Shown: positions 33,463 through 53,055, numbered from the stretch's first letter. The stretch: DNA of 64,000 nucleotides from an uncultured bacterium (GCA_964576535.1 CAZNWB010000004.1:10597-74596), one strand, 5' to 3'. Made by a program: numbers and translations. Notes: generated from the letters alone by a model not told the origin.

Positions 33463-33717
33463 ACCCCCCTCACCAGGCAAAAATCCGGCGCAGTCTAGCC
33501 CCAAAGCCCCGGGGTGTCAAGGCGCTTGGCCCGTCCTGTGCGCTTGGCCCGTCCGCCCTCGGTGGGACGCGGTATTGTCTAGGGGGGAATCAAGGCCTCA
33601 AGCCAGCCGTCTCACCGTGGCGCTGCTATCCTTGAAGGTGTATCGGCTACCACCCTACCCGCGAACGCCGTAGGGAATCTCTTGGCGCACCAACGGCGAT
33701 GCCGCTGGTACCGGCGG

Positions 33718-33932
33718 TTAGAGAATCGTTCGGCCGCCGTCCACCGGCAGGGCCATGCCCGTGATGAAGGAAGCCTCATCCGAGGCCAGGAACAGCATGG
33801 CCCGGGCGATCTCGTCGGTGCGGCCAACCCGACCCAGAGGGCAGACCTTGGGCCACGCTGTGAAGGCCTCTTCCCCGTATCCCAGGCGGTTCATGGGCGT
33901 GTCCATGAAGCCCGGGCAGACGCAGTTGACCC
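33718..33932 (-). pseudogene. Orphan 3' fragment (last ~70 codons) of an SDR gene; left direct repeat of the island
   Basis: Encodes ...DTPMNRLGYGEEAFTAWPKVCPLGRVGRTDEIARAMLFLASDEASFITGMALPVDGGRTIL*, collinear with the C-terminus of the SDR at 49192..49950. Homology stops at ...GTTGACCCGG|TATAAGG. Confidence 0.8.
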
Positions 33933-34400
33933 GGTATAAGGATCAGACTCATCGCCGCAAAGATAATTCGGCCTCGACTCCGCCCCCAGGGACCCCCTCC
34001 GGCTCGGCCCAGTGGGGCGGCGGCTGCCGCTATTCCCAGCCGAGGAGTCACGATGTCTCGATACTCGTCTTTCCGGATCGACAAAATCCTCTTGACTAGG
34101 GAACGTTGCTCGCGGTATGAAAGCTCTGTTTTCTCTCCAGCGCCAAGCCCACTGACCGTTACTTCGCCGCGGTGCGTTACGGCGGATTTCCTCGATATCC
34201 CAGGTAGTCACTGCTCAGCTAGAAGGCAGCAATTGACCCCGATCGCACCCCGGCTTCGCGTTGATCTCAACACGGGCGCGGCGTGGAAGTCGGAGGAAGC
34301 AGATCCGAATGCACGAGGTCACGTAACGCCCACATGCAAATTTGTGAGGTCGCGATGAAATGCAACCCAGAAGCGCCGCGCACGATGAGGTGAGGCCGCC

Positions 34401-34994
34401 ATGACACGGATTCTATCCGCGATCGGTCTGGCAATTGTCCTGGTAAGCGGCTGGTGGCTGTGGGTGGGTTACCGGCCAGCCGAGGCCGCGGACATCAGCG
34501 CCCTGCTCACCCGCGCGGGGACGGCGGAAAAAGGCGGCGACCACGCGGCGGCCATCGAAGCGTTGGAGCAGGCCCTCGAGAAGGTGCGCGTCGAAGCACC
34601 GCTGACCGTGAAGCCGTTTCTCCTCGTCACCCAGCCCGCCAAGTTCTACGGTGATTACACGCCGCGCCCGAACGCGGTCTTCCAGGGCGGCGAGCCGCAG
34701 CAGTTCTACATGGAGCCGAAGAACCTCGTCTATCCGCGGACGGTCGCAGGCACCTACGAGCCCGCGTTCGACGTCGATCTCCAGATCCTCACTGCGGGCG
34801 GTCAGGTGGTGGTGAGCCAGGAGAAGTTCGGCTCGTTACGCTTGCCGACCAAGAGCCCCGTCCAGGACATTTTCCTGAACCTCAAAGTGACGCTGAGCGG
34901 CGCCCCGCCCGGCGAGTACAGGGTCCGGTTCGTCGTGCGCGACGTGAACTCGAAGAAGACCGCCACGGTGACTCAGCCGATCACGCTGAAGTAG
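34401..34994 (+). CDS. Signal-anchored protein of unknown function
   Basis: N-terminal TM segment (ILSAIGLAIVLVSGWWLWV). The C-terminal ~120 aa look beta-rich. Confidence 0.55.
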   Translation: MTRILSAIGLAIVLVSGWWLWVGYRPAEAADISALLTRAGTAEKGGDHAAAIEALEQALEKVRVEAPLTVKPFLLVTQPAKFYGDYTPRPNAVFQGGEPQQFYMEPKNLVYPRTVAGTYEPAFDVDLQILTAGGQVVVSQEKFGSLRLPTKSPVQDIFLNLKVTLSGAPPGEYRVRFVVRDVNSKKTATVTQPITLK

Positions 34995-35021
34995 CGAGCA
35001 TATTTCACGGGGAGGGAATCC

Positions 35022-36113
35022 ATGTGTAAGGAAAGAATTTCAAAAGTGGTGCTGACTGTGACGTCGGCCGTGGCCATCGTCCTTGCTGTCGCCGGATGCG
35101 GGAAAAAAGAAGAGCCGGCCCCGAAGGCGGCGAGCCAGCCGACGGAGGTGAAGAGGCTGGTAGACGACACGAAACGTTACGCAGAAAGGCTGAAGGCTCA
35201 ACCGGCTGGAGGTGGCCCGGCGCCCGAACAGCTTGCCAAACTGACCGCCCAGTTGGACCAGCTTCTCCGTCATATGGAGGAAAAGGCCCAGGTACAGCAA
35301 CAGGGCGGCGATGTCTCCAAACCCAACGAGCAGATCGCCGCGGATTTGGCACAACTGCAGGAAGTCCAGAGTACCCTGCCGGCCGCCACGGGGGACCAGG
35401 GGACGCCGCCGGCCGCAGGGCAAGAAGCGCAACCAGCCTCCACCGGAGCGCAGGCGACACCACCGGCTGCAGGCCAGGAAAAACCGGCCCTCGACATGAT
35501 CAGCGAGAACCTTGCGAAGATCACCCAGATCGTCAAGCAGGGGCAGGAGCTCGTTGCTGTGTTGCGCCCGCCCAAGGGCCAAGCCGGGGACCCCTCTGCC
35601 TCCAGCATGGGTGGAACCTCAGAGGGAACACCGCCCGCAGGTGGGGCTCAAGCGTCCGAAGTTTTGCAGTCGAGCACAGGATCGTCCGCCACGGCCTCTG
35701 CGACCACTGAGTCCTCCACCACTCCTGTTCCCGAAACCACTGAGTCCTCCAGTGGCGCCTCGGGTAGCGCTGCCCCCGTGCTCGTAGCCCAGGCCGGCGG
35801 GCAGCCCGCGCCTGTCACCACGGGTTACGCCCGTGTGCACATGAATGCATACCCAAAAGGGCGGTTTCAGCTAAAGGTCAACGGGTTGCTGGCGGGTCAA
35901 TATGACAGTCATATCGATACGGAGTTGGGCCCGCTCCTCAAGGCTGGAGCCATCAATACGATCACTTTTACTTTCAGCCAGCCTGGAAGCACAGTAGATC
36001 TCCAAGTCATGGCTCCCGGTAGCGATAAATGGTTTAACATTCTGAAATTCCACGCCTCAAAAGAAAAGCTGGAGGACAGCGTGCAGATCCCCTTCGTGGG
36101 CGAAAAGAAGTAA
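35022..36113 (+). CDS. Lipoprotein with long low-complexity linker and ~95-aa C-terminal domain
   Basis: Lipobox LAVAGC; Ala/Pro/Gln/Ser-rich repeats. The C-terminal domain RFQLKVNGLLAGQYD...INTITFTFSQPGSTVDLQVMAPGSDKWFNILKF...IPFVGE has a paralogue at 37605-37850. Confidence 0.65.
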   Translation: MCKERISKVVLTVTSAVAIVLAVAGCGKKEEPAPKAASQPTEVKRLVDDTKRYAERLKAQPAGGGPAPEQLAKLTAQLDQLLRHMEEKAQVQQQGGDVSKPNEQIAADLAQLQEVQSTLPAATGDQGTPPAAGQEAQPASTGAQATPPAAGQEKPALDMISENLAKITQIVKQGQELVAVLRPPKGQAGDPSASSMGGTSEGTPPAGGAQASEVLQSSTGSSATASATTESSTTPVPETTESSSGASGSAAPVLVAQAGGQPAPVTTGYARVHMNAYPKGRFQLKVNGLLAGQYDSHIDTELGPLLKAGAINTITFTFSQPGSTVDLQVMAPGSDKWFNILKFHASKEKLEDSVQIPFVGEKK

Positions 36114-36171
36114 CCATACAGTCCGATCGGTAGAAGCCTGGCTGACGCCTTCTGTGGACAGGAGGTGCCCC

Positions 36172-37410
36172 ATGACACCCCTCCGTACATCCTTACTCGT
36201 CAGGCGAGTCCAGTTGTTTGCTTGCGTTGCGATCCTCGCCGCCGGCTGCGCCGGCCAGATGCCTCGCCTACCCGAGGGGGCGGGCATGGCCCTCGGCTTG
36301 GGGAAGGCCTTCATGGACCGTCCCAGCTTTAGCGACGCCGACGAGGCGCGGATGGCCAGGGAAAATGCCAAGAAGTTCGAGGCCGAACATCAGATGTGGG
36401 AGGACCCGCTCCTCGAGGCCTACCTGACCCAGATCACCCAGCGGATCGTTTCCGTCGCCAAGCCCCGGCCCTTTCCCTACCGCATCCGCGTCGTCAACGA
36501 AGCGAGCATCAACGCCTTCACCTTCGGCGGGGGCCTCATCTACGTCCATGCTGGCTTGCTCGCCAGGATGGAGAACGAGGCAGAATTCGTCACGGTGCTC
36601 GCCCATGAGATCGCCCATGTGACGGAACAGCACGTGACGAAGGGGATCGAGGCGGCCTATGGCATCCAGCTCCTCGGGCAGGTTGCAGCGACTGGTGCTG
36701 CCGCGTCAGGGACCCTTCCGCCGGCGGCACTCGAGAAGACGTTCGAATACTCGATGAACGCCGCGATCAACGGTTATGGCCGGAGCCAGGAGACCGAGGC
36801 AGACGAGGTGGGCCTCGAGTACCTGGTCAAGGCCGGCTACGACCCTCGCGAGGCACCTCGGACGTTCGAGCAGCTCATGAAAGAGTACGGAGACCAGACG
36901 TCGTTCCAGAACTTCTTTTATGGAAGCCATCCGACGAACGCTGCCCGCATCGAGCGGACGACCGAACTCGTCAAGTCCAAGTACGCCAAAGATCTGGCGA
37001 CCCGGCGCCTGGTCGTGAACACCCAGGAGTTCATGCAGCGCACGCGGGTGCTCGTCGTCGCCACGGGAATCCTGGATTACGACACCAAGCGGTTCAACAC
37101 CGCGACCGCCATGTTCAAGAAGGCCGCGCGGGCCGATGCGGCCGACCCGGTGCCGCATTATTACCTTGGAAAGATCGCCCTGGAGACCGGCAGCGACGCC
37201 GGCGCGGTTGACCGGGCCATCGCCCACCTGGGCGACGCGACCAAGGCAGACGCCAAGTACGCGCTGGCCTATCGAGAGCTTGGACTCGCCTACTACCGAA
37301 AGGGCGACAAGCCAAAGGCGATCAGCGCCTTCGAGCGCTATCTTGCCCTCGATCCAAGCGCCAAGGATGCCGACCGAATCAGAGCTTCAATCACTGAACT
37401 CAAGCGGTAG
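36172..37410 (+). CDS. M48-family Zn-metalloprotease with C-terminal TPR repeats (BepA-like lipoprotein)
   Basis: Lipobox ILAAGC; HEIAHV zinc motif; ...EADEVG...; TPR-like C-terminus. Confidence 0.85.
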   Translation: MTPLRTSLLVRRVQLFACVAILAAGCAGQMPRLPEGAGMALGLGKAFMDRPSFSDADEARMARENAKKFEAEHQMWEDPLLEAYLTQITQRIVSVAKPRPFPYRIRVVNEASINAFTFGGGLIYVHAGLLARMENEAEFVTVLAHEIAHVTEQHVTKGIEAAYGIQLLGQVAATGAAASGTLPPAALEKTFEYSMNAAINGYGRSQETEADEVGLEYLVKAGYDPREAPRTFEQLMKEYGDQTSFQNFFYGSHPTNAARIERTTELVKSKYAKDLATRRLVVNTQEFMQRTRVLVVATGILDYDTKRFNTATAMFKKAARADAADPVPHYYLGKIALETGSDAGAVDRAIAHLGDATKADAKYALAYRELGLAYYRKGDKPKAISAFERYLALDPSAKDADRIRASITELKR

Positions 37411-37507
37411 CAGCGTGAAGCTGGTCATCCACCGGAAGCCGCCGGTACGTGTTGCGCCTGATGTGGGTTGCACGCATTAAGGCAGCGTGATCGCCCGGGA
37501 GGAGATC

Positions 37508-38021
37508 ATGCGCACATTCATGAAGCCGATCCTGCTGATCGTCGCAATACTGTTGATGCCGCTGACGCCCGCCGCCCAGGGACACGACGCCTCCTCCGCA
37601 CAACGGCAAAGGCCGGCTTCAGATCAAGGTCAATGGCCTGCTGGCAGTTGCCTATGACCAACATGTCCAAATGGCCTTGGACCCCCTTCTGCAGCCCGGG
37701 GCCATGAATACAATCACCTTTACATTCAACCGCCCTGGAGGCCAAGTCGAACTCTCAGTCAAAGCTCCCGGTAGCGATCAATGGGTTCCGATTCTGAAGT
37801 TCACCGCCCCACAGGGCAAACTGGAAGACAGCTTCGAGGTTCCATTCGTGGGGGAAGGAGGGCAGCAAGTTCGGGAGGCAGGAGGAAAGCCAGAACCAGC
37901 GAGATCGGCGCGCCCGATCCCCCAAAAGATCCTGACGCCAAAGAAATCGCGATATTCCAAAGCCGTGCCAGGCGGCGACAGCAGCTCTGCAACGTCTCGC
38001 CCCGAAAGGAGGGCCCAGTGA
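37508..38021 (+). pseudogene. Frameshifted short paralogue of the 35022 lipoprotein C-terminal domain
   Basis: The signal peptide MRTFMKPILLIVAILLMPLTPAAQG is in one frame (stop at ~37650). The domain GRLQIKVNGLLAVAYD...NTITFTFNRPGGQVELSVKAPGSDQWVPILKF...VPFVGE is in the +1 frame with no start before 37671. Confidence 0.55.
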
Positions 38022-38836
38022 AAACTTTCCCAGAGGGAATCGGCCGGCTAGTCCTTTTGCTTGTGACATCCCTTGGACTCCTGACGCTCCCATACGCATT
38101 GCCTGCCGAGGCCAAGTTTCACAAAGGGCTCTTGGATGACCCCAAGGGGAAGGCCGAGCGGTCCGCCGAGTGTGCGAAGGGAGATACCAAGGTCGAGAGG
38201 AAGATCGTAAGCGGTACGATCAAGCACGCGAAGGAGAAGTACAAAATCGCTTCCCTGGTCGACGCGAACGACGAGAAGCGCTCCGAGAAAGAGATGTATG
38301 ACTTTCTGAACTGGAAGCTTGGGTCCCCGTCGGCGGTGTGCGGTCAGTACATTACTGGGGGGCAAAAGCACTTCAATAAAGGTTACACTGACGAGGCTGC
38401 AGCGTCCCTGTTGGGGATGGAACTGCCCGGGGGCGGACGGACCGAGTTCAAGCTCCCGAAGAGGATCTCCGACCAGCTCAAGGCGCAGATCAAGAGTTGC
38501 GCGGACCAGGTTGCGGGTGCGGTCGCGGGTAAGGCGCCAGCGAGCCCGGCGCCGGCGAGCCAGTCGGCCACAGACAAGCTCACCGCCCAGGCGATGGAAA
38601 AGGTGTCGCCTGCCTGCAAGCAGCAGGTAGATAAGCTGCGCCAGCAGCTCGAGAAGGACTACAGCATCCCGCCGGAGCTGCAAGACATGGCCATCAAAAA
38701 GATTTCCGAGGCCGCGGTCGCGGGGACCAAGGCGGTCGACCGGATCGGATTCAACATGCCCAAGAAGTGGGATGTCGAAACAAGCGCCGTTGAGAAGCTG
38801 ATGGCCGAAAGACGGGCTGAAAGGGGTGCGCGGTAA
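38018..38836 (+). CDS. Secreted Lys/Ala-rich helical protein of unknown function
   Basis: The GTG start overlaps the previous stop (GTGA). Signal peptide VKTFPEGIGRLVLLLVTSLGLLTLPYALPAEA. Confidence 0.55.
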   Translation: MKTFPEGIGRLVLLLVTSLGLLTLPYALPAEAKFHKGLLDDPKGKAERSAECAKGDTKVERKIVSGTIKHAKEKYKIASLVDANDEKRSEKEMYDFLNWKLGSPSAVCGQYITGGQKHFNKGYTDEAAASLLGMELPGGGRTEFKLPKRISDQLKAQIKSCADQVAGAVAGKAPASPAPASQSATDKLTAQAMEKVSPACKQQVDKLRQQLEKDYSIPPELQDMAIKKISEAAVAGTKAVDRIGFNMPKKWDVETSAVEKLMAERRAERGAR

Positions 38837-39000
38837 GCGGCGACAAAGGGTCGAGACCAAACAATTGGCGCGGTTTCGCTGGGACATCGCGATTGCGGAG
38901 GGATCAACGAAGAGCAACCTCAGCGGCCTCTCGCCGAGGGCCACTGAGTTGTAGTTTCTGCCGTGAGGAGGACAGCCGAATCCGTAGAAGGAGAACGACG

Positions 39001-40914
39001 ATGATGCCGATGGCCAAGCCGACTCGTCTCGTCGCGGCGGTGGCCGCGACATTCCGTCCGGCCCTGCTCGCTCTCTTCGCTTTGTTCGTCTCAGGATTTC
39101 TCTGGCCGGCCGTGGCCGCGGAACCGTGTTGCCAGATCACCAGCATCGACACCAGCGGGGGCACGGTGACGGCCAAGGAATCGGCCAGCCAACGGACATT
39201 CCAGTTCACTGTAAAAGACCGTCTGCTCCTCTCTAGGCTCAAGGTGGGCCAGAGGATCTACGCGAACTTCAACAGCAAGCAGGTGTCTGTCGATGGCAGG
39301 GTGTTCTGCTGCCCGATCGTGACGATCTCGGCGGCTGCCCCGCAACCGGCGCCCCGACCGACCACTGCGCCGAGCACCCCGTCCGCCTCTCCACCTCGTC
39401 CAGCCCCAGGCGGACCGCCCCCCGCTGGGCAGCCGGCGACCGGAGCGGCGCCGCCGGTCATTACGTTGCCGAAAGCCTTCATTGCCACCGGCCCCGTGAG
39501 AAGATCGGCCCCGCAGCGCAGTGCCCAATGGGAATCGCGCCGCCTGAGCACGACGGTGGATGGCAAGCCCACCGACGTCGAGGTGATCCACCTCCGCGGA
39601 ATCGAGGGGATTGAAGCGGCCGACATTCCTGAGTCGGCGAAGGCGTTCTTCCTCACCCACGCCAAAACGCTCCCCCCGGATGAGGTGGCTCACTATGTGG
39701 TCAATAAGAAACAGATCGAAGAGTGGGCCAAGACTCATCCGATGCCCGAGACCTTGAAGAAGAAAAAGGAAACCCATCGTAAGCGCGGATGTCACAGCAT
39801 CTCGATGAAGTGCGCCAGAAAGGGAGTGGAGCATGTTTCAAAGGAAGTGTCGAAACAGGCCGAGGCTCTGCGAAAGGAGGCTCGCGACGAGTGGAAAGAT
39901 ATCTCGCGCGAACTCGGTCGCGGCTTGAAGATGACCGAAGGGGCACTGCTCGAGTGCTTTCGCGACCACACGATCTCGAGTGGCCCCATACGGATCGGGT
40001 CACTGACAATCCCGCCGAAGATCAGGTTCGCCGGGCCCCTTGCCACAGGCAAGGACGGCAAGGTGGACGGCAGGGCGAACATCAGTTTCCCCATCCGGTT
40101 GGATGAAGTCACTGTCGAAGTCAAAGCGTTCGTCATCCCCTGCGCGGTCACCGTGCCGGCGCTCCCCATCTTTGTACGTCCGAAGAGCGTTTCGCTTGAG
40201 GGAGTCCTGACCGTGGACAGCACCCTCGACCTGGAGCTCAACGCGAAGGGCAGGCTGACGAAAGAGATCCCGCTGATCCAGCGGACGGAGGTGAATCTCT
40301 TCACGACCGTCATCTTCATCCACGCGGTCCCGGTCGAGTTGGACCTCGGGATCGAGTTCGAGGGCCAGGTGGTCATCAAAACCGACGGTGCCCTGCACGC
40401 GACGTTCTGCGATGTGAGAAAGCGGAAGATCCGGTTAGACTTCGACTGCAACGGTAAAGGCTGCAGTGGCTCGCCGCGCGACCTGCCGGTGGACTTCACA
40501 CCCATACGGGATCTGCAAGTTGCTGCCCAAGGCCACGCCTCCATCAGGCCGGCCGTCTTCACCGCGGTTTCGTTGGATGTCAATTTCGGCGCTCTGGGGG
40601 CCCGCGTCGGGCCAGAGTTCTACGTGAGCGCCGAGGTCCAGGGCGCGGCACGCGCTGGCTCCTCCGGGACGCCGCCGGCCAGCCCGGCTGTAACCGCTGC
40701 CGGCCTTACGGCCAACTTGTACGCGGGCGTCGATATGCGCTACTTGGTTGACTTCCTGCAACCGGAATTCGCGCCAGGGGTGTCTCCCGTGAAGAGTTTG
40801 GAGAGCAGAGCCCATCTGTGGAAAGACAGCCTTCTGTCCAAATCAGTGGGCTCGCCGTCGGCCGCAGCCCAACCGAGCAAACCGGGCTCGGCGAGCGCGC
40901 GGTGTGCGAAGTGA
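39001..40914 (+). CDS. Large secreted protein of unknown function (CC-bracketed N-domain, Pro-rich linker, beta-rich C-region)
   Basis: ATG after GAAGGAG; signal peptide ending AVAAEP. The N-domain begins with CC and ends with FCCPIV. No family recognised. Confidence 0.65.
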   Translation: MMPMAKPTRLVAAVAATFRPALLALFALFVSGFLWPAVAAEPCCQITSIDTSGGTVTAKESASQRTFQFTVKDRLLLSRLKVGQRIYANFNSKQVSVDGRVFCCPIVTISAAAPQPAPRPTTAPSTPSASPPRPAPGGPPPAGQPATGAAPPVITLPKAFIATGPVRRSAPQRSAQWESRRLSTTVDGKPTDVEVIHLRGIEGIEAADIPESAKAFFLTHAKTLPPDEVAHYVVNKKQIEEWAKTHPMPETLKKKKETHRKRGCHSISMKCARKGVEHVSKEVSKQAEALRKEARDEWKDISRELGRGLKMTEGALLECFRDHTISSGPIRIGSLTIPPKIRFAGPLATGKDGKVDGRANISFPIRLDEVTVEVKAFVIPCAVTVPALPIFVRPKSVSLEGVLTVDSTLDLELNAKGRLTKEIPLIQRTEVNLFTTVIFIHAVPVELDLGIEFEGQVVIKTDGALHATFCDVRKRKIRLDFDCNGKGCSGSPRDLPVDFTPIRDLQVAAQGHASIRPAVFTAVSLDVNFGALGARVGPEFYVSAEVQGAARAGSSGTPPASPAVTAAGLTANLYAGVDMRYLVDFLQPEFAPGVSPVKSLESRAHLWKDSLLSKSVGSPSAAAQPSKPGSASARCAK

Positions 40915-41262
40915 AGGTCCTGAACGCGACGTTCGGGCGGCTGCGCTGATGGCCCTGCTCAACGCCGCCTCCGCGTCAGCCCAGCCGGAGTCGTCAGCAG
41001 CTCGTCTCCCGGTCTTCGAGTAGGAGGCCGGGATGAAGGCCGTTAGGTCGGTCGCGGTCGTTATTGATCTGGATTCGAGATCCTGCCCCAGCACAAGGAC
41101 TTCTTCCAGAAGGTCTCCGGAAAGCTCGACCCCGAGGTGCGATGGGCGCGGCAATTCAAGGGCGTGGACGGGTATGTGCCCGGCTGTGCGGCAGCGATGC
41201 GGGTGTCGCAGTAAGTCGGATCCACTACCCTCCTCCGGCGAGGGGCCGGGAAAGGCAAGACG

Positions 41263-42126: not shown

Positions 42127-42155
42127 GCCCTAGTTCCGGCAAAGGAGGAAATGTC

Positions 42156-43094
42156 ATGAGCACCAGGCTACCGAGCCTCACGATGATTGCCGCGCTGGTC
42201 CTGGGCGCGGTGGCCTGGCTCGCGCCGGGGCCTTTCTGCTGCCCCATCGTCAGCGCCGGCACCGCTCCACCCGTGCAAACCGCGCCAGGGGTGGCCACGG
42301 CCCTGCTCCGCCAGACGAAATTCGACCCTAAAGTCCACGGGTTCGAGTTCACCAACTACTTCACCGGTGACATCCTGGTGGATCTGCCCGTGATCGGCAG
42401 GGTCGACCTCGGTAATACAACCTACGGGCTCTGTGGCGGAATGATCTTTGCGGCCTACGACACCTTCAACCTCGGCGCCATGGCGCCCGATGTCCCCACC
42501 ACGCCTCCTGCCTCGGGAACCCCCATGCGTTCTTACATCTACGGGAGGCAGATGGACAGCCTCAGGAACAACGACTGGTTTCTGGTCCGCCGGCTCGTCT
42601 CGTGGATCCGGAAGCCCCTCAAGGACCAGACGGTTCCCAACCCGGCGGCCAAGGGTGGGGTCAATGTGCTCGAACGGGGGCTAATACATCTCTCGGGAAA
42701 GGAGTTCAAGAACAAGATCCAACCCGAGCTGAACGCGGGGCGGCCCGTGACTATCGCTCTCGTCAAAGCGTCGGGCGAAGACTTGCTCTCGAATTCCAAG
42801 GCCGCGTTCAGCAAAAACCATCAAGTCCTGGCCATCGGCTATCGCAAGCATGGCGACGAATGGCAGATCGACATCTACGATCCCAACTTTCCCAACACGA
42901 TTCAGACGCTCCACACCGACGGACGGTATCAGACCCAAAAGGGCACCACCACACACACCGGCAGTTTCCGTGGTTTCTACCGTGCGCCCTACAAGATCGA
43001 GAGGCCGCCATGGGTAAAGGCCAGCCCGACGGTGGCGAGTCGCCTCAAGAGTTTTCCAGCCGTATCCCTCGGGAGACCCGACTCCGACGATTGA
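42156..43094 (+). CDS. Secreted papain-fold-like protein (predicted Cys/His/Asp)
   Basis: ATG after AGGAGG. Signal peptide, then FCCPIV. Candidate catalytic TYGLCGGM ... NHQVLAIGY ... IDIYDPN. Confidence 0.5.
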   Translation: MSTRLPSLTMIAALVLGAVAWLAPGPFCCPIVSAGTAPPVQTAPGVATALLRQTKFDPKVHGFEFTNYFTGDILVDLPVIGRVDLGNTTYGLCGGMIFAAYDTFNLGAMAPDVPTTPPASGTPMRSYIYGRQMDSLRNNDWFLVRRLVSWIRKPLKDQTVPNPAAKGGVNVLERGLIHLSGKEFKNKIQPELNAGRPVTIALVKASGEDLLSNSKAAFSKNHQVLAIGYRKHGDEWQIDIYDPNFPNTIQTLHTDGRYQTQKGTTTHTGSFRGFYRAPYKIERPPWVKASPTVASRLKSFPAVSLGRPDSDD

Positions 43095-43278
43095 CATGGA
43101 CGCCGATATGGTTGCAGCAGTCAAAGCCGCCGGTGCGGCGCCTTGAGCGAACCTGGGTTCACGGTCATGACGGGTTTGCTGGTGGGAATCTCCCTCTTCG
43201 GGGAATGCCTGCCGCTTACAGCAGTCGGCATCTTTGTCCCGACATAGACACCCAAGTACGTACATGAGGAGACCCTCC

Positions 43279-44517
43279 ATGCGCGTCCGCGCCTTCCCGG
43301 TTGGCCTCGTCAAGTGCGGCCTAGTCCTCGCCCTCGCGCTCTCAATCCTGGTCGCCCTGGCAGCGCCCGCGGTCTCGGCACAGCTTTGCCCCCCGCCGGT
43401 GGTGAAGTCCCCGGAGTTGCTGGAGCCGAAAGGCTGGTGTTTCGTGGCCAGCAAGGACCCGAGACGGCCAGCGATCCTCCTCTTCCACGGCTTGCACCAA
43501 GGGGAGTGGAACTGGACGGCGCCGTCGTCGCATGACCAGTACATCTACAACTACAAGGAACACCCCAAGGTCCGTCACGAGACGAAGGAATCGCCGGGCG
43601 TCGGGATTTTCAAGATCGGGCGGTCGGAGAAGCTCGATCCGAAGAAGGTGGTGGACGACAACAACTGGTTCAATTTTCTTCTCAACCAGGGATATAGCGT
43701 CGCGACCTGGACACAGGACGGTCCCCGGTTCGAGGCGGCCTATCAGTCCGCCAAGAAGGCGTATCAGGTCTTTTTGAAAGAGACGTCTACCCGCAGTTCC
43801 TCAGCGCCGCCGCCCATCGCACTGATCGCCCACAGCCGCGGTGGACTCGTGATTCGACGGCTGCTCAAGGACCTGGAGAACGACGTGCGGCGGGTTCGGT
43901 GGGTGATCACCCTGCACTCCCCCCACCAGGGCAGCGATATGGCGCGGGTGCCATCCCAGATCTTTGGCGAGATCACCGACCTCTTGAATCCGGTGCCTCT
44001 GCCCAAGAAGATCAAGGAGGAGCTCCACGAGCTGGCCGTCGAAATGGCGCGGCCGCTCACGAAGTTCGTCACCGATCACACGAAGGCCGGCGACGAGTCG
44101 CGAGAACTGATGCCGGGTGGGCCGCTCTTCAGGAGCCTTGAAGACGGGGAGAAGGCGCTTCCGGGGGTGAAGTACTACACCTTCGGCGGCACGAACCCAA
44201 GGTACTACCGGCTCTACACTTGGGTATTCACGCCGGGCAGCGCGACGCCCCAGTTTCGGGGCCTCGACAAGTACTTCAAGTGGGAGATCAAGCCGGTGGA
44301 GATCGAGCAGATTTCGCCGATGTTCGACAAGGTCCGGGACTTTGCCGGAGAGATCAAACCTGGATACGGGGATGGCCTCGTCACCGACGAGCGGGCCCGA
44401 CTGCCGAAGAAGACCTTTCCGAACGCGATCCACGAGACGACCAAGCTCAACCACGCTGAGGTGTTATGGAACTCGGATCTCCAACGGAAGGTCGTCAGCA
44501 TCCTGGCACGCCCCTGA
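43279..44517 (+). CDS. Secreted alpha/beta-hydrolase (lipase / PGAP1-like)
   Basis: ATG after AGGAGA; signal peptide ...LAAPAVSA. LIAHSRGGLV nucleophile elbow; ITLHSPHQGS motif. Confidence 0.65.
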   Translation: MRVRAFPVGLVKCGLVLALALSILVALAAPAVSAQLCPPPVVKSPELLEPKGWCFVASKDPRRPAILLFHGLHQGEWNWTAPSSHDQYIYNYKEHPKVRHETKESPGVGIFKIGRSEKLDPKKVVDDNNWFNFLLNQGYSVATWTQDGPRFEAAYQSAKKAYQVFLKETSTRSSSAPPPIALIAHSRGGLVIRRLLKDLENDVRRVRWVITLHSPHQGSDMARVPSQIFGEITDLLNPVPLPKKIKEELHELAVEMARPLTKFVTDHTKAGDESRELMPGGPLFRSLEDGEKALPGVKYYTFGGTNPRYYRLYTWVFTPGSATPQFRGLDKYFKWEIKPVEIEQISPMFDKVRDFAGEIKPGYGDGLVTDERARLPKKTFPNAIHETTKLNHAEVLWNSDLQRKVVSILARP

Positions 44518-45033
44518 CCGCTGTCGGCCCCCCCGGGGGCCCGACCGACTCCTTACCAGGGAGGGTCTCGTCAGCACGACCCATCAGCGTCTCATGTTCT
44601 CGATGACGGAGGTGCTCGTGAAGATTTTGTTGCTCCTCTCGGCCTGGCCCGAAGGCCCGGCGGACGCTCACCTTCCTTTGGTGGGCACTGCCCGCGGACC
44701 GGCCTAGAGCAGCCGTAAGCTCCGCGGCGCGGTCGGCCGCGCTCATGTGCAGCCGTTGTCGGACTCCGACAGGGCCGGCCACTACGGAGATCCTCGGAAG
44801 AAAACCCCAACAGAGCGCCATCAACCCGACGACGCGGCCGCTGAGGGCTGGCCTAGATTAATGGTGGCCCGGTCGGGGGAAGGCGGTGTCCCGTGATGAG
44901 AACCATCGCCCCACGGCCGGATCCGCCTAGCGTCAGTCGTGCTCCCAGAGGGGCTCCTGACGCCGGGAGGGGCAGGCCCTGCAGCTGAGCTTTATCGTTG
45001 TGCTTCAGCAAGTAGGAGCAAGGTGGGGACCGG

Positions 45034-45528
45034 ATGAAGGGAGACTCCATGAATCGTGCCGCGTTTAGTACCCTCACCTCCGAAGTCTCCACAGCCATCG
45101 ATGTCATCCTCGAGAACGCGGCGTTCATCGCCAAGGAAACGCCGACCCTTACAGTTAGCCAGAACCGCAAGGCCGAGGTGCTCGAAATATGCAACGCCTT
45201 TGAGGAGACGCTGATCTTCGATGTGAGGAAAGAAGTCGGGACGCTTGCGGACAAACTGGGACTCCATCCAGGCGAGGAGCCCTTAGATCCGAATGTGGTG
45301 AATCCGGACCCCCTCGTTAATATCAGGTTTATCAGGGAATGGACGTGGCAAGAGATCGCGAAACTTGACAGGGTCATCAGGAATCTTCCAGAAGACACGA
45401 AGGGCACCGAGGAAATACAGTTCGCAATCCTCCTGAGGGAATCGGGGGCCAATATTCTTAGCGCCTACGAGCGACTGTGCGCTGCCACGGACGAGATTAG
45501 CCGGCTGTGGGCGGAGCATCACAGGTGA
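45034..45528 (+). CDS. Hypothetical cytoplasmic protein
   Basis: 164 aa, acidic and helical, lower GC. No motif recognised. Confidence 0.5.
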   Translation: MKGDSMNRAAFSTLTSEVSTAIDVILENAAFIAKETPTLTVSQNRKAEVLEICNAFEETLIFDVRKEVGTLADKLGLHPGEEPLDPNVVNPDPLVNIRFIREWTWQEIAKLDRVIRNLPEDTKGTEEIQFAILLRESGANILSAYERLCAATDEISRLWAEHHR

Positions 45529-45580
45529 CCAGGCTCCCCATCCTCGTCGGCGCAGTGCTCTGCCGGAGGCTAAAGGGGCG

Positions 45581-46045
45581 ATGACGCAACTAGAAGGGCA
45601 AAACTATCCGGGATGTCAAGTTGGCGAGGCGGGAATATGGGGCTTCACGGACGAGGTGAGGTGCCACGTCAGCATCGAGACCATGATGAGCTGCGGCTGC
45701 GGCGGGTATGTCGATCATAGCGTCCACCACTGCACCCAGTGTGAGAGATATTTTCTGTTCGCCTACGAGGAGCACTGGCTGCCGTCAAGGGAGGATGCGT
45801 ACGTAGCCGAGATCGGCCGCTCCGAGGCCCAGGCGCTTGTGGCCCGGCTCCGCGAGTGTCCCAATTTGGACAAGCGCAACTGCGGGTGCGATGTACACCG
45901 CGGCTCCAAGTTCCTTTACAAGGAGACCAAGGGGCAGCGCCCTGGAAAGACACACCCTCGACTCGCTGGCCCCGGGAAAGAAGAGGCGATGGAAGATCGC
46001 CAGCAAGGTCTTCGGCCCCTGAGAGGAGGAAGCGAACCGTCATGA
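45581..46045 (+). CDS. Cys/His-rich hypothetical protein
   Basis: CGCGGYVDHSVHHCTQCE ... CPNLDKRNCGCDVH. ATGA overlap with the next gene. Confidence 0.5.
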   Translation: MTQLEGQNYPGCQVGEAGIWGFTDEVRCHVSIETMMSCGCGGYVDHSVHHCTQCERYFLFAYEEHWLPSREDAYVAEIGRSEAQALVARLRECPNLDKRNCGCDVHRGSKFLYKETKGQRPGKTHPRLAGPGKEEAMEDRQQGLRPLRGGSEPS

Positions 46046-46998
46046 GGCTCTGGGGCAAGGTGGCGAGCGGGATGTTGCTGGTTTTCGCCGCTGTTTCCGT
46101 GGTGGTCGCCGTCGTCGTGCCGGAGATGCGGTCGGCGTCCATGCTCGCTGCTGTCCTCATGCTTACCGTCGCCCTGTTCGGCGTTCCCGCGCTCGTGCGG
46201 ATCTTCCTGTCCTTCACGGGGGACGAGGAAGTGCTGGAGAACGGCACCGCGGGGTCGGCCACCATCACCTCCCTGAAATGGACTGGGTGGCGCTACAACC
46301 GCTACTACCCCATCGTCAGGTTCAGCCTCAGTGTAGAGGCGGGCAACGTCTATCCGGTCGAGATCAAGCAGACAGTCGACCCGGAGATATTTTCGCGACT
46401 CACCCCAGGAGTTGTCGTCGGGGTGCGAGTGGACCCCTTGGATCGCAAGAAGGTCGTTATCGACTGGCGCCAGCCGGTTCGCGCGGCCACAGGCGCGATG
46501 GTGGGCTCAAGTGTGACCGAGGACGCCCGAGGGACAGTCACTCCCACCGCGCGAACCTCACCGTGGCCGCTCCTGCGCTGGATCTTTCTCGTACTCGGTG
46601 TGGTCTTTCTTCGCCTGAGCTGCGAAGAGGGCTACTATGAAAAGGGCGGGGTCAGGGTTGAAGGGGTTGTCCTGCACAAGGCGTTCTCTCCAGGGACCAC
46701 CCCTTCGGGAGGCAGCGGCAGCTCCCCGTCCAGACACTCTGTGAGCTACCGCTTCACCACGAAAGAGGGGCGAACGCTCGAGGGCAGATCCGACGTCCTA
46801 CCCGGGATGTGGCGGCAACTCAAGGAAGGCGATCCGGTTGCCGTCGAGTACCTGCCGGACTCGCCCGACACCAACCGCATCCCGGAACAGCGAGCGAGGT
46901 CCCGGACCTGGACAATCATGGCGCTCGTTCTGCTCGCTGCGAGCGCTGTCCTTTTCATAATCGTCCGGCGTCAGCGATTGGCTCACGCAAGTCGCTGA
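46042..46998 (+). CDS. Membrane protein with two DUF3592-like modules
   Basis: TM-TM-module (ATITSLKWTGWRYNRYYPIVRF...VRVDPLD)-TM-module (GVVLHK...SVSYRFTTKEGRTLEG...VEYLPDSP)-TM. Confidence 0.65.
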   Translation: MRLWGKVASGMLLVFAAVSVVVAVVVPEMRSASMLAAVLMLTVALFGVPALVRIFLSFTGDEEVLENGTAGSATITSLKWTGWRYNRYYPIVRFSLSVEAGNVYPVEIKQTVDPEIFSRLTPGVVVGVRVDPLDRKKVVIDWRQPVRAATGAMVGSSVTEDARGTVTPTARTSPWPLLRWIFLVLGVVFLRLSCEEGYYEKGGVRVEGVVLHKAFSPGTTPSGGSGSSPSRHSVSYRFTTKEGRTLEGRSDVLPGMWRQLKEGDPVAVEYLPDSPDTNRIPEQRARSRTWTIMALVLLAASAVLFIIVRRQRLAHASR

Positions 46999-47023
46999 GC
47001 CAGATAGGGGTTCTTCATCTACG

Positions 47024-47755
47024 ATGGCGTCCGAAAGATCCTTCTTTGGCTTAGCCAAAAAGTCCTTCGCCTTCTGGTTCGGCGGCATCTGGCTCTTCTG
47101 TGGGGCGCCGTTCCTGATCATCGGCATCTATGTCGGGATCGACACGATGCGTCAGCAAGCACGCTTCCGGGACGAGGCCCAGGTTGCCCAGGGCATGGTG
47201 CTGACGAAGTCGATCAGAAGCAGTACAGACAGCAAGACGTACTGGGTGGGCTATCGCTTCAGCGCGCCGGACGGCATAGTGGTGAACGGCGAGGCGAAGG
47301 TCAGCGAAGAGTTCTGGGACCGACTGGTGGAGCGGGAGCCCGTCCAAATCACGTACCTGCCCAGTGATCCCCGGAGTCACCGGATCGAGGGCGAAGGGCC
47401 CGACTGGATGCTACCGCTGATCTTCACGGTCCTGGGGCTCGTCTTGGTACCGCTGGGAGGGGGGATCTTCCTCAAGGGTGTGCGCGGGATCCTGCGCGAG
47501 CTCCGACTCCAGGTCGAGGGCACGATGGCCGAGGCGACGGTGGTGGAGGTGGGCCCGGCCAACGCCAGCCTCAACGGCATCCCGCAGTGGAGGATCCGCT
47601 ATCGCTATCAGGATCATCGGGGCCGAACGCACACCGGGGAAAGCGCCCTCATGGCGCCGGACGAGGCGCAGGAGTGGAAGGTGGGCGACACGGGGGCAGC
47701 GCGCTTCGATACGCGCGCCTCGAAGAAAAGCATCTGGATCGGGAGAGCATCGTGA
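47024..47755 (+). CDS. Membrane protein with two DUF3592-like modules
   Basis: TM-module (GMVLTKS...YWVGYRFSAPDG...ITYLPSDP)-TM-module (ATVVEVG...WRIRYRYQDHRG). Confidence 0.65.
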   Translation: MASERSFFGLAKKSFAFWFGGIWLFCGAPFLIIGIYVGIDTMRQQARFRDEAQVAQGMVLTKSIRSSTDSKTYWVGYRFSAPDGIVVNGEAKVSEEFWDRLVEREPVQITYLPSDPRSHRIEGEGPDWMLPLIFTVLGLVLVPLGGGIFLKGVRGILRELRLQVEGTMAEATVVEVGPANASLNGIPQWRIRYRYQDHRGRTHTGESALMAPDEAQEWKVGDTGAARFDTRASKKSIWIGRAS

Positions 47756-49080
47756 GGATACCGGTCACTTTTTCCGGCCGGACGTTTTTCTTGTGGTTCG
47801 GAGCCCTGTTCATGTGCGCCGGCCTGATCGTGCTCTACGGGGGGATACAGGAGGCGACCCGGGAGCGGGCCTACCAGAAGCAGGGCCAGATCGTCGAGGC
47901 GGTCGTGCTCAGCAAGTCGATCCAGCGGGCGTCGCGCCAGGGGAACCCCAGCACGCGATACGAGATCATCTATCGCTTCACGACCGCCGACGGCCTGACG
48001 GCCGAGGGCGTCGCCGCCGTCGCCGTGGAGGAGTGGGAGAGCTTGGAAGCGGGGGACCCGTTCAAGGTCACGTATCTTCCCAGGGCGCCGGAGGCGAGCC
48101 GCCCCGAGGGTGTGGGCGGCATGAAGTCCCCCCTCCTCATGATGGGGGCCGGCAGCCTCTTCGCCCTTATCGGGGGCGTCCTCTTCGTGAGGAGCGCGAC
48201 CCGGATCTGGCGAGAGCGGCGCCTGCTCCGCGAGGGCCAGACGGCGCAGGGTACGGTCCTCGCGATCGAGCCTACCAACGTCGCCGTCAACAACGTTCAG
48301 CAGTGGGAGGTGCGGTATCGGTATCCAGACCAGTTCGGGCGGGCCCAGGAGGGGACGAGCGGTCCCGTCCCTCCCGATGCGGCCCAGGCCGTCGGAATCG
48401 GCGACGCCCTGGCGGTCCGTTTCAATCGGGAGCATCCCGAGGAGAGCGTCTGGGACAGGGCCCGGGCGCCGGTGCCGGCGGGCGGGACCACCGAGGCCCT
48501 GCAGCAGAAGGGGTTGCTGTCGTTCCTGAAGCGGCTTGCCAACTTTGCCGTGATGCTGGGACTCGTCTTCGTCGCAATGGTCGTGGCCGAGGCCGTGCCG
48601 GCCATGAAGGATCTGGAACGTTTCATGGTCCGCCACCAAGTCCCGCTCCTGGCAGTGACGATCGGGATGACCGTCGTCGGATTCGTGCTGTTCATGGGCA
48701 GCATCCTTTACCGGATCTTCGGGGGCGCCGGCGAGCCGATGAGCCACACGGAGGTGGAGGATCTCGAGCGGAGCGTGCGGATGGATGCGCGCCCGGTCTT
48801 CGCACGCGTCTCCAAGTATCGGTTCCGCGGTCGGAGCACCGGCTCCTCGTTCTCCGAGCAGTTCACTGTGCGGGAGGCCAAGGACGCCTGGAAGCAGCGG
48901 GGCTGGCGCACGAGCCCACGCTGGCGGAGCAACTTCGTGGTGATGACCGGCGTGATGCTGTTGACCATCGGGCTCTTCGGCATCTTCATCGTCATCGGCC
49001 CGAACTTCATCAAGCTGCTGTGCGGCACGGCTCTCGTCTACGCAGCGGTCAGAACGATCATCGCATTCGCGCGCGCGTGA
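47752..49080 (+). CDS. Membrane protein with two DUF3592-like modules plus a 4-TM C-terminal extension
   Basis: GTGA overlap with the previous gene. Same TM-module-TM-module plan (YEIIYRFTTADG...VTYLPRAP; WEVRYRYPDQFG), then four more TM helices. Confidence 0.65.
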   Translation: MRIPVTFSGRTFFLWFGALFMCAGLIVLYGGIQEATRERAYQKQGQIVEAVVLSKSIQRASRQGNPSTRYEIIYRFTTADGLTAEGVAAVAVEEWESLEAGDPFKVTYLPRAPEASRPEGVGGMKSPLLMMGAGSLFALIGGVLFVRSATRIWRERRLLREGQTAQGTVLAIEPTNVAVNNVQQWEVRYRYPDQFGRAQEGTSGPVPPDAAQAVGIGDALAVRFNREHPEESVWDRARAPVPAGGTTEALQQKGLLSFLKRLANFAVMLGLVFVAMVVAEAVPAMKDLERFMVRHQVPLLAVTIGMTVVGFVLFMGSILYRIFGGAGEPMSHTEVEDLERSVRMDARPVFARVSKYRFRGRSTGSSFSEQFTVREAKDAWKQRGWRTSPRWRSNFVVMTGVMLLTIGLFGIFIVIGPNFIKLLCGTALVYAAVRTIIAFARA

Positions 49081-49191
49081 GGAATTATCGTCCCCCCCCC
49101 GGCCCCTGGCGCAATTCCTTGGAATGTATTTCCTCGAGTTATCACGGGATCGGTATGAGAAAAAAGCACGGTTTCCGGATATTTCCTCAAC

Positions 49192-49410
49192 TTATATGAT
49201 CGTGCGGCCGCCGTCCACGGGCAGGGCCACGCCCGTGATGAAGGATGCCTCATCAGAGGCCAGGAACAGCATGGCCCGGGCAACCTCGTCGGTGCGGCCA
49301 ACCCGACCCAGAGGGCAGACCTTAGCCCACCCTGCGAACTGTGCTTCCACATCTTCTTTCGTCCCGGAGCCACGGACCATGGGCGTGTCAATGAAGCCGG
49401 GACAGACGCA
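49192..49410 (-). repeat. Right direct repeat of the island (3' end of the intact SDR gene)
   Basis: Collinear with 33718-33932, with long identical runs such as CTCGTCGGTGCGGCCAACCCGACCCAGAGGGCAGACCTT, plus a ~12-nt indel and scattered substitutions. Confidence 0.75.
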
Positions 49411-53028: not shown

Positions 53029-53055
53029 AATCCTTCCTCCGTCCCAATACCTTCC

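What the first reader, a model, noticed from the sequence alone, without database searches (positions are those of the whole stretch)
33718..49410. 15.3-kb island bracketed by diverged direct repeats of the last ~70 codons of an SDR gene
**What the sequence shows.** 33718-33932 (minus strand) encodes an orphan SDR C-terminus ending in its own stop. It is collinear with the 3' end of the intact SDR gene at 49192-49950, in the same orientation. Long identical runs are interrupted by substitutions and one ~12-nt indel. Homology ends abruptly at GTTGACCCGG|TATAAGG (33932/33933), and on the other side right at the stop codon (49192).

**Interpretation.** This is the footprint expected when an integrative element targets the 3' end of a protein-coding gene and carries a replacement 3' end, analogous to tRNA-targeting islands. 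The enclosed DNA has patchy low GC, gene fragments and a frameshifted paralogue.

**Caveats.** No integrase or transposase is visible inside, so the element is either decayed or was mobilised in trans. Short terminal motifs TATAAG (left) and CTTATA (right) are inverted with respect to each other, but only over 6 nt.
Basis: partly seen in the sequence, partly recalled or inferred. Interest (0 to 1): 0.65.

Follow-up and report, generated by a model that had tools for sequence, protein, structure and literature searches.

The report
Variable island flanked by SDR-tail repeats
In an uncultured NC10 (Methylomirabilota) bacterium, a 15.5-kb block of ordinary envelope and secreted-protein genes sits between an intact dehydrogenase gene and the leftover tail of a second one; near-identical strains lack it, and it looks like recombination between similar gene tails, not a self-mobile element.

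Summary
Window 33718-33934 (-) is an orphan SDR C-terminus. It is about 87% identical, with one 12-nt indel, to the 3' end of the intact SDR at 49192-49420.

The enclosed 15.3 kb is a real insertion polymorphism. The closest relatives carry CoA-transferase, SDR and thrC contiguously with no island. One such empty-site contig is 99.7% identical in its thrC flank to an island-bearing contig.

The integrative-element reading is only partly supported. The orphan is not the displaced tail of the intact gene. It comes from a different 248-aa "type II" SDR, and its variable patch matches a full-length type II gene 42/42. The intact gene is "type I", like the empty-site gene (53/54). Its 3' end includes a 39-nt tract identical to the orphan.

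The island encodes an M48 protease, three DUF3592 proteins, alpha/beta-hydrolases and lipoproteins. No integrase, transfer, phage or defence gene was found. Its GC content is 62.0% against 64.2% in the flanks. A related island-bearing strain has a different junction.

The most likely mechanism is homologous recombination among SDR tails in a hotspot just upstream of the thrC promoter. This is ordinary genome plasticity of modest interest.

The parts
31603..33504 (-). thrC, a threonine synthase fused to a LeuA allosteric domain. The likely true start is the ATG at 33462. It is the conserved anchor gene on the left.
   Evidence: Pfam PALP 5.7e-71 and LeuA_dimer 2.5e-27. It is 98% aa identical in L096/L106 and syntenic with EndoIII-RuvX-MltG in all close relatives.
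33492..33522 (-). thrC promoter (TTGACA-17-TAGACT). Position 33522 is the last base conserved in all relatives, so the variable region starts just upstream of it.
   Evidence: Promoter scan. blastn HSPs of L092, L096, L097, L098 and L177 all end at 33521-33527.
33523..33717 (-). 'Spacer A' between the orphan's stop codon and the thrC promoter. It is host DNA, orthologous to the spacer that follows the intact SDR in empty-site relative L096.
   Evidence: 91% identity over 186 nt to L096 2309-2494, and 34/36 directly after the stop. L177 and L092 carry a different spacer B.
33718..33934 (-). Orphan SDR C-terminus: a 5'-truncated type II SDR of 71 codons plus stop. Sub-blocks are distal tail 33718-33810, 39-nt zone 33811-33849, type II patch 33850-33891 and 5' block 33892-33934.
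   Evidence: Translation. 95.9% nt identity over 222 nt to the full-length 248-aa SDR of L090 (P0056), with the patch 42/42. Confirmed in independent JGI contig L176 at 99.9%.
33935..33998 (.). 64 nt found only in the window and L176, lying between the truncation point and the next feature. Origin unknown.
   Evidence: blastn-short against all 179 fetched loci hits only the window and L176.
33999..34017 (-). Probable second, tiny SDR-tail remnant (CCGGCTCGGCCCAGTGGGG, reading ..PLGRAG on the minus strand). It corresponds to the point where the SDR tail meets the island in L177-L179.
   Evidence: Alignment of the window with L177, and overlapping blastn HSPs L177 9329-9448 / 9431-9672. Based on 19 nt only, so tentative.
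34401..37410 (+). Left module of the island: a 197-aa membrane or secreted protein, a 363-aa lipoprotein, and an M48 peptidase with TPR repeats (36154-37410).
   Evidence: Pfam Peptidase_M48 2.1e-30 plus TPR. Lipoboxes were read from the translations. 89% nt identity in L177-L179, also next to thrC there.
37608..37856 (+). Remnant of a lost gene. It resembles the C-terminal domain of the 363-aa protein.
   Evidence: Direct repeat D1, 249 nt at 73%. L177 has an intact 459-aa FlgT_C-domain gene at this position.
37781..46045 (+). Variable middle of the island. It holds hypothetical exported proteins of 351 and 673 aa, a thioesterase-like alpha/beta hydrolase (41263-42126), a 364-aa protein, a PGAP1/DUF7379-like hydrolase (43234-44517), and two small ORFs.
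   Evidence: Pfam. No NCBIfam, PHROGs or PADLOC family was found. After the 673-aa gene, L177 carries different genes such as Peptidase_C1.
45856..49080 (+). Right module: three DUF3592 membrane proteins. Gene calls in the Logan contigs, converted to window coordinates, are 46042-46998, 47024-47755 and 47752-49080.
   Evidence: Pfam DUF3592. The b-c pair is a conserved chromosomal module in other Methylomirabilota/Rokubacteria, in unrelated contexts and with M48 in L084.
49081..49191 (.). Island-side spacer between the DUF3592c stop and the SDR stop. It travels with the island.
   Evidence: 63 nt at 95% in L095. It is deleted in L094 and absent from the empty sites L096 and L092.
49192..49950 (-). 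Intact 252-aa SDR with a mosaic 3' end. It is type I from the N-terminus through the patch (49324-49950). The 39-nt zone 49285-49323 is identical to the orphan and type II-like. The last 45 nt of the distal tail (49192-49284) are 44/45 identical to the island-linked tail of L094.
   Evidence: Pfam adh_short_C2 1.2e-66. Maximum-chi-square breakpoint at the patch/zone border, p = 0.0002-0.002. L094 tail 44/45 identical.
49978..54827 (-). Host operon upstream of the SDR: CoA-transferase, class-III aminotransferase and two ABC permeases. It forms the right flank.
   Evidence: Pfam. CoAT is 95-96% aa identical and directly adjacent to the SDR in L091, L092 and L096.

Best explanation
The 15.3-kb segment is a strain-variable accessory gene cluster encoding envelope and secreted proteins. 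It lies in a recombination hotspot between an SDR gene and the thrC promoter of an NC10/Methylomirabilota genome.

It is bracketed by SDR-tail repeats because it was joined to the chromosome by homologous recombination within the conserved 3' blocks of SDR genes, and it is still being shuffled among strains the same way. These SDR genes exist in the clade as several alleles or paralogues (types I, I' and II).

The event has the geometry of a Campbell-type single crossover. An equivalent route is import of an already-occupied haplotype by crossovers in the SDR tail and near thrC.
- The host type I gene kept its body and variable patch, and now carries a 39-nt type II-like tract with island-linked DNA directly after its stop codon.
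- A 5'-truncated type II SDR fragment that came with the incoming DNA was left as an orphan, joined to the host's own spacer in front of thrC.
- The 39-nt tract identical in both copies is the exchange or conversion zone.

Shown: the insertion polymorphism, the mosaic, and the absence of mobility genes. Inferred: the recombination mechanism and the order of events.
For: 1. **Empty sites.** L096 is 94.9% nt identical over 11.2 kb on the thrC side and 92.7% on the CoAT-SDR side. L091-L093 are also empty. SDR-thrC adjacency is the state in all more distant relatives, so the island is derived.
2. **Recent polymorphism.** Empty L096 and island-bearing L177 are 99.69% identical over 9,250 nt, up to the thrC promoter.
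3. **Mosaic**.
   - Patch: intact gene = L096 53/54; orphan = L090 type II 42/42.
   - 39-nt zone: identical in both copies; 38/39 to type II but 33/39 to L096.
   - After the orphan's stop: L096 34/36.
   - After the intact gene's stop: L095 19/24.
   - Last 45 nt of the intact gene: L094 44/45.
   - Breakpoints are significant (maximum chi-square, p = 0.0002-0.005).
4. **Reshuffled C-terminal type.** Types I and II occupy the same CoAT-SDR-thrC locus in close relatives (L096 against L097). Among 119 homologues, the nearest neighbour by N-terminal part has a different C-terminal type in 25 cases. C-terminal segments are therefore often reshuffled.
5. **No recombinase or mobility gene**. Composition is near-native. 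The M48-DUF3592 module is ordinary chromosomal content of the phylum.
6. **Variable junction and spacers.** The junction differs in L177-L179, and spacer alleles A and B are each found with and without the island.
Against: - The distal 93 nt of the tails are ambiguous. The orphan is 87/93 to both L096 and type II, so the crossover point on the orphan side is not located.
- A simple reciprocal crossover does not by itself make the 39-nt zone type II-like in both copies. A conversion tract has to be added.
- The 64 unique nt and the 19-nt second remnant (33935-34017) imply at least one earlier event that I cannot reconstruct.
- The SDR at the right end of the island in L095 looks like a third type (I'). 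The ancestral occupied haplotype may therefore differ from the window.
- No donor molecule, circular form or recA dependence was observed.
- No contig independent of the window spans from the SDR body through the tail into the island. The Logan k=31 unitigs stop in the zone.
Confidence: 0.6

Rival explanations
1. Ancestral tandem SDR paralogues (type I then type II) stood in front of thrC. The island, or a translocated chromosomal block, was inserted by illegitimate recombination into the thrC-proximal type II copy and deleted its 5' two-thirds. Later gene conversion between the two copies made the identical tracts. Island-free relatives lost the second copy by recombination between the tails.
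For: - Tandem SDR pairs exist in this clade: L001 has I+I' directly upstream of thrC, and L090 has II+I'.
- The orphan is type II along nearly its whole length, at 28 of 28 informative sites up to the zone.
- The very end of the L096 SDR tail (ATTCTCTAA CCGCC) is type II-like. A deletion chimera would look like this.
- Conversion tracts flank the patch on both sides of the intact gene.
Against: - No sampled genome has the required I-II tandem next to thrC. All 15 or more island-free relatives have a single SDR there, or I+I'.
- The DNA after the intact gene's stop travels with the island in L094 and L095. It is not a I-II intergenic spacer.
- This model needs more independent losses than the recombination model.
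Confidence: 0.2
2. One reading: a site-specific integrative element targets the 3' end of the SDR gene and carries a replacement end. It is now decayed, or is mobilised by a recombinase encoded elsewhere.
For: - Empty sites exist, and the target is duplicated over about 220 nt.
- The intact gene is reconstituted with island-linked DNA directly after its stop codon.
- Strains with 99.7% identical flanks differ by the island.
- ICEs with tyrosine integrases do target 3' ends of housekeeping genes (PMC4701971).
- A tyrosine integrase exists in the window at 10192-11280.
Against: - The island has no integrase, excisionase or transfer genes, either here or in the 11 kb seen of the L177 variant.
- The only integrase in the window sits next to tRNA-Pro, 22 kb away, with phage-like genes. 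It has its own obvious target.
- The repeats are 217 and 229 nt at 87% identity, against 12-54 bp direct repeats in the streptococcal set.
- The orphan is of a different SDR type from the gene it would have been cut from.
- The junction position differs between occupied strains: 71 against 41 codons.
- The island's cargo and GC content are native to the phylum.
Confidence: 0.12
3. Assembly artefact: the chromosome is really empty. A separate 15.47-kb circle (or another locus) that shares the 39-nt zone was threaded into the contig by the assembler.
For: - The two copies share an exact 39-nt run.
- Logan k=31 unitig L081 is 15,495 nt, which equals 15,474 - 39 + 2x30. It is bounded by the two zone copies, as expected for either topology.
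- No independent contig spans from the SDR body into the island.
Against: - Independent JGI contig L176 (18.6 kb, 99.9% identical) runs thrC-spacer-orphan-island across the zone.
- Three further assemblies of a related strain (L177-L179, k141 and JGI) also join thrC to the island through an SDR-tail remnant.
- A 39-nt repeat is too short to mislead assemblers using k=141.
Confidence: 0.05

Closest known systems
ICEs and IMEs with tyrosine integrases that insert into the 3' end of housekeeping genes such as rplL, rpsI, rpmG, lysS and guaA in Streptococcus (PMC4701971)
   Same: Both insert at the 3' end of a protein-coding gene, leave the gene intact, have direct repeats made of the gene's 3' end at both borders, and have empty sites in related strains.
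   Different: Those elements carry an integrase next to one border and have 12-54 bp direct repeats. Here no recombinase or transfer gene is found. The repeats are 217 and 229 nt at 87% identity and belong to two different gene types. The junction also varies between strains.
Campbell-type single-crossover integration of a circular DNA carrying an internal or 3' gene fragment, as in suicide-vector insertion duplications (textbook knowledge, not tested here)
   Same: The product has the same anatomy: one complete chimeric gene copy, the inserted DNA, then one truncated copy in direct orientation. Each copy mixes host and incoming sequence, and a conversion tract lies at the exchange point.
   Different: This is a natural event in an uncultured bacterium, between homeologous segments only 80-90% identical. 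No circular donor is known. A double-crossover import of an already occupied haplotype gives the same end product.
Flexible genomic islands at fixed chromosomal hotspots, exchanged between strains by homologous recombination in the flanking core genes (general knowledge of bacterial population genomics)
   Same: The locus is the same in all strains, and presence or absence is seen among strains with 99.7% identical flanks. Island content varies (window against L177), composition is native, and there are no mobility genes.
tRNA-gene-targeting genomic islands and prophages
   Different: There is no tRNA, tmRNA or Rfam RNA near either border. The window's one classical example is a separate element, an integrase at 10192-11280 next to tRNA-Pro.

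Membership tests
Site-specific integrative element (ICE, IME or integrase-bearing genomic island) | A tyrosine or serine recombinase gene inside the element, usually next to one border | tested here: not met
   Pfam, NCBIfam and PHROGs scans of the island ORFs found none. None appears in the called genes of the L177-L179 variant either.
Site-specific integrative element (ICE, IME or integrase-bearing genomic island) | Short att-derived direct repeats with an identical core at both borders | tested here: inconclusive
   The repeats are 217 and 229 nt at 87% identity, with an exact 39-nt run. Streptococcal ICE direct repeats are 12-54 bp. A core could hide inside the 39 nt.
Site-specific integrative element (ICE, IME or integrase-bearing genomic island) | An intact, unoccupied target (attB) in related genomes | tested here: met
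   L096 and L091-L093 have CoAT-SDR-thrC with no island.
Site-specific integrative element (ICE, IME or integrase-bearing genomic island) | The same junction position in every occupied genome | tested here: not met
   The window and L176 keep 71 codons of SDR tail. L177-L179 keep 41 codons, fused to the island at the equivalent of window position 33999.
Site-specific integrative element (ICE, IME or integrase-bearing genomic island) | Excision as a circle with a reconstituted attP | not testable with these tools
   No reads are available. The Logan unitig length (15,495) fits both the integrated and the circular form.
Site-specific integrative element (ICE, IME or integrase-bearing genomic island) | Transfer, replication or phage functions, or foreign base composition | tested here: not met
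   No relaxase, T4SS, phage or defence hits. GC is 62.0% against 64.2%, and the GC3 difference is not significant.
Homologous (Campbell-type or flank-mediated) recombination insertion | The insert is flanked by direct copies of one homologous segment, one copy in a complete gene and one truncated | tested here: met
Homologous (Campbell-type or flank-mediated) recombination insertion | Both copies are chimeras of host-like and incoming sequence, with a breakpoint in the shared segment | tested here: met
   Block identities and site patterns. Maximum chi-square p = 0.0002-0.005. The distal tail is ambiguous.
Homologous (Campbell-type or flank-mediated) recombination insertion | Dependence on RecA and existence of a donor molecule | not testable with these tools
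   The organism is uncultured and only assemblies are available.
Remnant of an ancestral tandem paralogue | The full-length form of the orphan's gene type exists in relatives | tested here: met
   P0056/L090 (248 aa) is 94% aa and 96% nt identical to the orphan. About 70 type II genes are among the 120 listed homologues.
Remnant of an ancestral tandem paralogue | A type I - type II tandem at this locus in relatives | tested here: not met
   Only I+I' (L001) and II+I' (L090) tandems were seen. All other relatives have a single SDR next to thrC.
Classical short-chain dehydrogenase/reductase (the repeated gene) | Rossmann-fold adh_short domain over the whole protein | tested here: met
   adh_short_C2 1.2e-66 and adh_short 2e-56 for 49192-49950. 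The orphan covers only the last 71 residues.

The most novel reading that the evidence does not exclude
The island could be a recombinase-free mobile cassette that uses a carried SDR-tail fragment as a 'homology att site'. It would enter and leave SDR genes of different types by RecA-dependent Campbell recombination. As a by-product it would leave orphan tails that act as donor cassettes, swapping the C-terminal variable patch of the SDR between types I, I' and II.
Probability: 0.08. Interest if true: 0.6.

Novelty: new member of a known kind. Interest (0 to 1): 0.3.

Why it matters
The finding documents a recombination hotspot just upstream of the thrC promoter in uncultured NC10/Methylomirabilota. 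A 15-kb envelope-protein cluster is gained, lost and remodelled there among strains that are otherwise 99.7% identical.

It also gives a worked example of a caution for island-finding heuristics. A gene-tail direct repeat, which looks like an att-site footprint, can arise without any integrase, through recombination among alleles and paralogues of the target gene.

It does not reveal a new mechanism.

Tried and rejected
- **Exact-sequence look-ups failed.** The window's SDR and the 633-aa ThrC ORF are not on record.
- **Orphan as displaced original tail: rejected.** Its patch is type II, whereas the empty-site genes are type I.
- **Intact gene as a type II body with a type I replacement end: rejected.** Its N-terminal part is closest to type I genes (P0059 94.4%), and its patch equals L096 at 53/54.
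- **Island as foreign DNA: rejected.** Composition is near-native. The M48-DUF3592 module occurs chromosomally across the phylum.
- **Prophage or defence island: rejected.** There are no PHROGs or PADLOC hits, and the 673-aa island protein has no relative in IMG/VR.
- **tRNA or ncRNA target: none** near the borders.
- **TATAAG/CTTATA terminal inverted repeat:** only 6 nt, it overlaps the stop codon, and it is not conserved in L095. No longer inverted repeat lies at the island ends.
- **Origin of the 64-nt unique stretch 33935-33998:** searched in all fetched loci, with no match.
- **A single clean crossover point:** not obtainable, because the distal tail is equally close to both candidate parents.
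- **Right end of the L177 contig:** could not be read.

Full report
**1. The observation**

The window comes from an NC10/Methylomirabilota genome, judging by the ThrC relatives. On the minus strand, 49192-49950 encodes an intact 252-aa classical SDR (adh_short_C2, E = 1e-66). Position 33718-33934 encodes only the last 71 codons of an SDR, with its own stop.

The two 3' ends align in the same orientation. A 147-nt block and a 48-nt block, each 90% identical, are separated by a diverged patch containing a 12-nt indel. Codon-aligned identity is 87%, and 79% at third positions.

Homology ends at the stop codon on the right copy and at 33934/33935 on the left copy.

Between the copies lie 15,257 nt, with all genes on the plus strand:
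- a 197-aa protein and a 363-aa lipoprotein;
- an M48 peptidase with TPR repeats;
- several hypothetical exported proteins;
- two alpha/beta-hydrolase-like proteins;
- three DUF3592 membrane proteins.

GC is 62.0% against 64.2% in the flanks. The GC3 difference is not significant.

**2. Related genomes: a real insertion polymorphism**

I scanned species-representative genomes and JGI metagenomes with ThrC, and looked up contexts of SDR and island proteins. Three results follow.

First, every relative without the island has an SDR directly upstream of thrC. This holds for L001-L005, L097, L100, L101, L107, L137, L144, L146 and L151, so the island is the derived state.

Second, the closest relatives are empty sites. 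L096 is 94.9% nt identical over 11.2 kb on the thrC side and 92.7% over CoAT plus SDR. L091-L093 are 91-96% identical. All have CoA-transferase, SDR and thrC contiguous. L096 positions 2081-2301 align to both window copies (33933-33713 and 49419-49199). Relative to L096, the window therefore has 15,474 extra nt sitting in a duplicated target of about 220 nt.

Third, the island exists in other assemblies:
- L176 is 99.9% identical and runs thrC-orphan-island.
- L081-L083 are 100% identical and show the right end.
- L094 and L095 are 91-93% identical and show the right end with an SDR tail.
- L177-L179 have island DNA 87-90% identical, sitting next to thrC.

L177 (occupied) and L096 (empty) are 99.69% identical over 9,250 nt, up to the thrC promoter. 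All synteny breaks fall at window position 33522, just upstream of the TTGACA -35 box.

**3. What the repeats are**

SDR homologues in this clade fall into classes that differ in a variable patch after the conserved ...GFIDTPM block:
- type I: 252 aa, patch VRGSGTKEDVEAQFAGWA;
- type I': 252 aa, patch ARGDGTPDEVEAQLAGWA;
- type II: 248 aa, patch NRLGYGEEAFTAWP.

The window's intact gene is type I, like the empty-site genes. Its patch matches L096 at 53/54. The orphan is type II. Its patch matches the full-length 248-aa gene P0056 in L090 at 42/42, and it is 95.9% nt identical to that gene over 222 nt.

Types I and II occupy the same CoAT-SDR-thrC locus in close relatives (L096 against L097). 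Tandem pairs also occur: I+I' in L001 and II+I' in L090.

Block-by-block comparison gives the following:

| Block | Result |
|---|---|
| 39 nt after the patch | identical in both window copies; type II-like (38/39); differs from L096 and L092 (33/39) |
| After the orphan's stop codon | 195-nt spacer is L096's (34/36 at its start, 91% overall) |
| After the intact gene's stop codon | matches the island-linked sequence of L095 (19/24) |
| Last 45 nt of the intact gene | L094 44/45 |
| 93-nt distal tails | otherwise ambiguous |

Maximum-chi-square tests support breakpoints at the patch/zone and zone/tail borders (p = 0.0002-0.005).

The intact gene is thus a mosaic: a host type I body, a type II-like tract, and a tail whose last 45 nt and downstream DNA are island-linked. 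The orphan is a type II fragment joined to host DNA in front of thrC.

**4. Mechanism**

This anatomy is that of a single-crossover (Campbell-type) integration of DNA carrying a 5'-truncated SDR fragment. An equivalent route is import of an already occupied haplotype by crossovers in the SDR tail and near thrC, with a conversion tract at the exchange point.

Five points argue against a dedicated site-specific system:
- No integrase, excisionase, relaxase, phage or defence gene is present.
- The repeats are long and diverged, whereas integrase-borne ICEs at gene 3' ends have 12-54 bp direct repeats (PMC4701971).
- The orphan and the intact gene belong to different SDR types.
- L177-L179 have a different junction. 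Only 41 codons of tail are fused to the island, at the equivalent of window position 33999.
- There are two spacer alleles. Allele A is in the window and L096. Allele B is in L177 and L092. Each occurs with and without the island. Flank-mediated allelic exchange would produce this pattern.

The island's cargo is native to the phylum. The M48-DUF3592b-DUF3592c module occurs in other chromosomal contexts in more distant relatives. The interior differs between the window and L177, and it contains a gene remnant.

Among 119 SDR homologues, the nearest neighbour by N-terminal part has a different C-terminal type in 25 cases. Recombination in the conserved blocks flanking the patch is therefore common.

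**5. What remains unexplained**

- The 64 nt at 33935-33998 match nothing else that I fetched.
- A 19-nt motif at 33999-34017 looks like a second SDR-tail remnant at the L177-type junction. Both features imply an earlier event.
- The SDR closing the island in L095 appears to be type I'. P0175 is the same type and probably lies on the L177 contig, judging by matching contig length only. The first occupied haplotype may therefore have looked different from the window.
- No contig independent of the window spans from the SDR body into the island. Logan k=31 unitigs end in the 39-nt zone. Unitig L081 is 15,495 nt, which equals 15,474 - 39 + 60. This fits both the integrated and the circular form.
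- The left junction is confirmed by L176, and by L177-L179 in a related strain. An assembly artefact is therefore unlikely.

**6. Verdict**

The 'integrative element' label fails its defining tests.

The best-supported reading is an accessory gene cluster in a homologous-recombination hotspot, marked by a pseudogene tail of another SDR type. This is a new example of a known kind of genome plasticity in a poorly studied phylum, and of modest interest.

Noticed in passing
window 238-11369: A tyrosine integrase (10192-11280, Pfam Phage_integrase 2.5e-15) lies directly upstream of tRNA-Pro(ggg) at 11293-11369. Upstream are a DnaB/KaiC-like ATPase with a wHTH domain (238-1452) and a Caudovirus prohead protease S78 (4188-5195). 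This is probably a prophage or integrative element at tRNA-Pro whose left end lies beyond the window.
   Followed up: no
window 37608-37856 and 35856-36104: A 249-nt direct repeat at 73% identity. The second copy is a remnant of a gene that is intact in relative L177 (459 aa, FlgT_C domain) between the M48 gene and the next gene.
   Followed up: partly
window 33999-34017; L177 9431-9448: A 19-nt motif inside the island's left edge looks like a second SDR-tail fragment (..PLGRAG). It coincides with the SDR-tail/island junction of L177-L179, which suggests nested recombination events.
   Followed up: partly
window 33680-33717; L098 2225-2263, L157 1981-2018, L004 2896-2932: The 38 nt directly after the orphan's stop codon (CCGCCGGTACCAGCGGCATCGCCGTTGGTGCGCCAAGA) recur at about 95% identity in other relatives, at a different place downstream of thrC. 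This may be a small intergenic repeat. The window has only one copy.
   Followed up: partly
L002 5060-6208, L005 7957-9135, L003 29-622 against window 49950-49978: More distant relatives have an acyl-CoA dehydrogenase gene between CoA-transferase and the SDR, and L003 also has a TRAP transporter there. The window, L091, L092 and L096 have none. The whole operon upstream of the SDR is variable.
   Followed up: partly
window 31603-33504; L035-L061: ThrC here is fused to a C-terminal LeuA allosteric (LeuA_dimer) domain. The same fusion appears at about 50% identity in Peregrinibacteria/Gracilibacteria (CPR) genomes. The archaeal hits match only the ThrC part.
   Followed up: no
L001 660-1000: The spacer between the tandem SDR genes of L001 contains a tandem duplication (GTAAAGTGGCAACGTCCCCTTTGCTGC, two copies) and G/C-rich palindromic stretches.
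   Followed up: no
window 45581-46998: The 154-aa ORF (45581-46045) and the first DUF3592 ORF overlap by about 190 nt in different frames. Gene calls in the Logan contigs start the DUF3592 gene at the equivalent of 46042. In L084 a separate 156-aa gene matches residues 65-214 of the long ORF.
   Followed up: no
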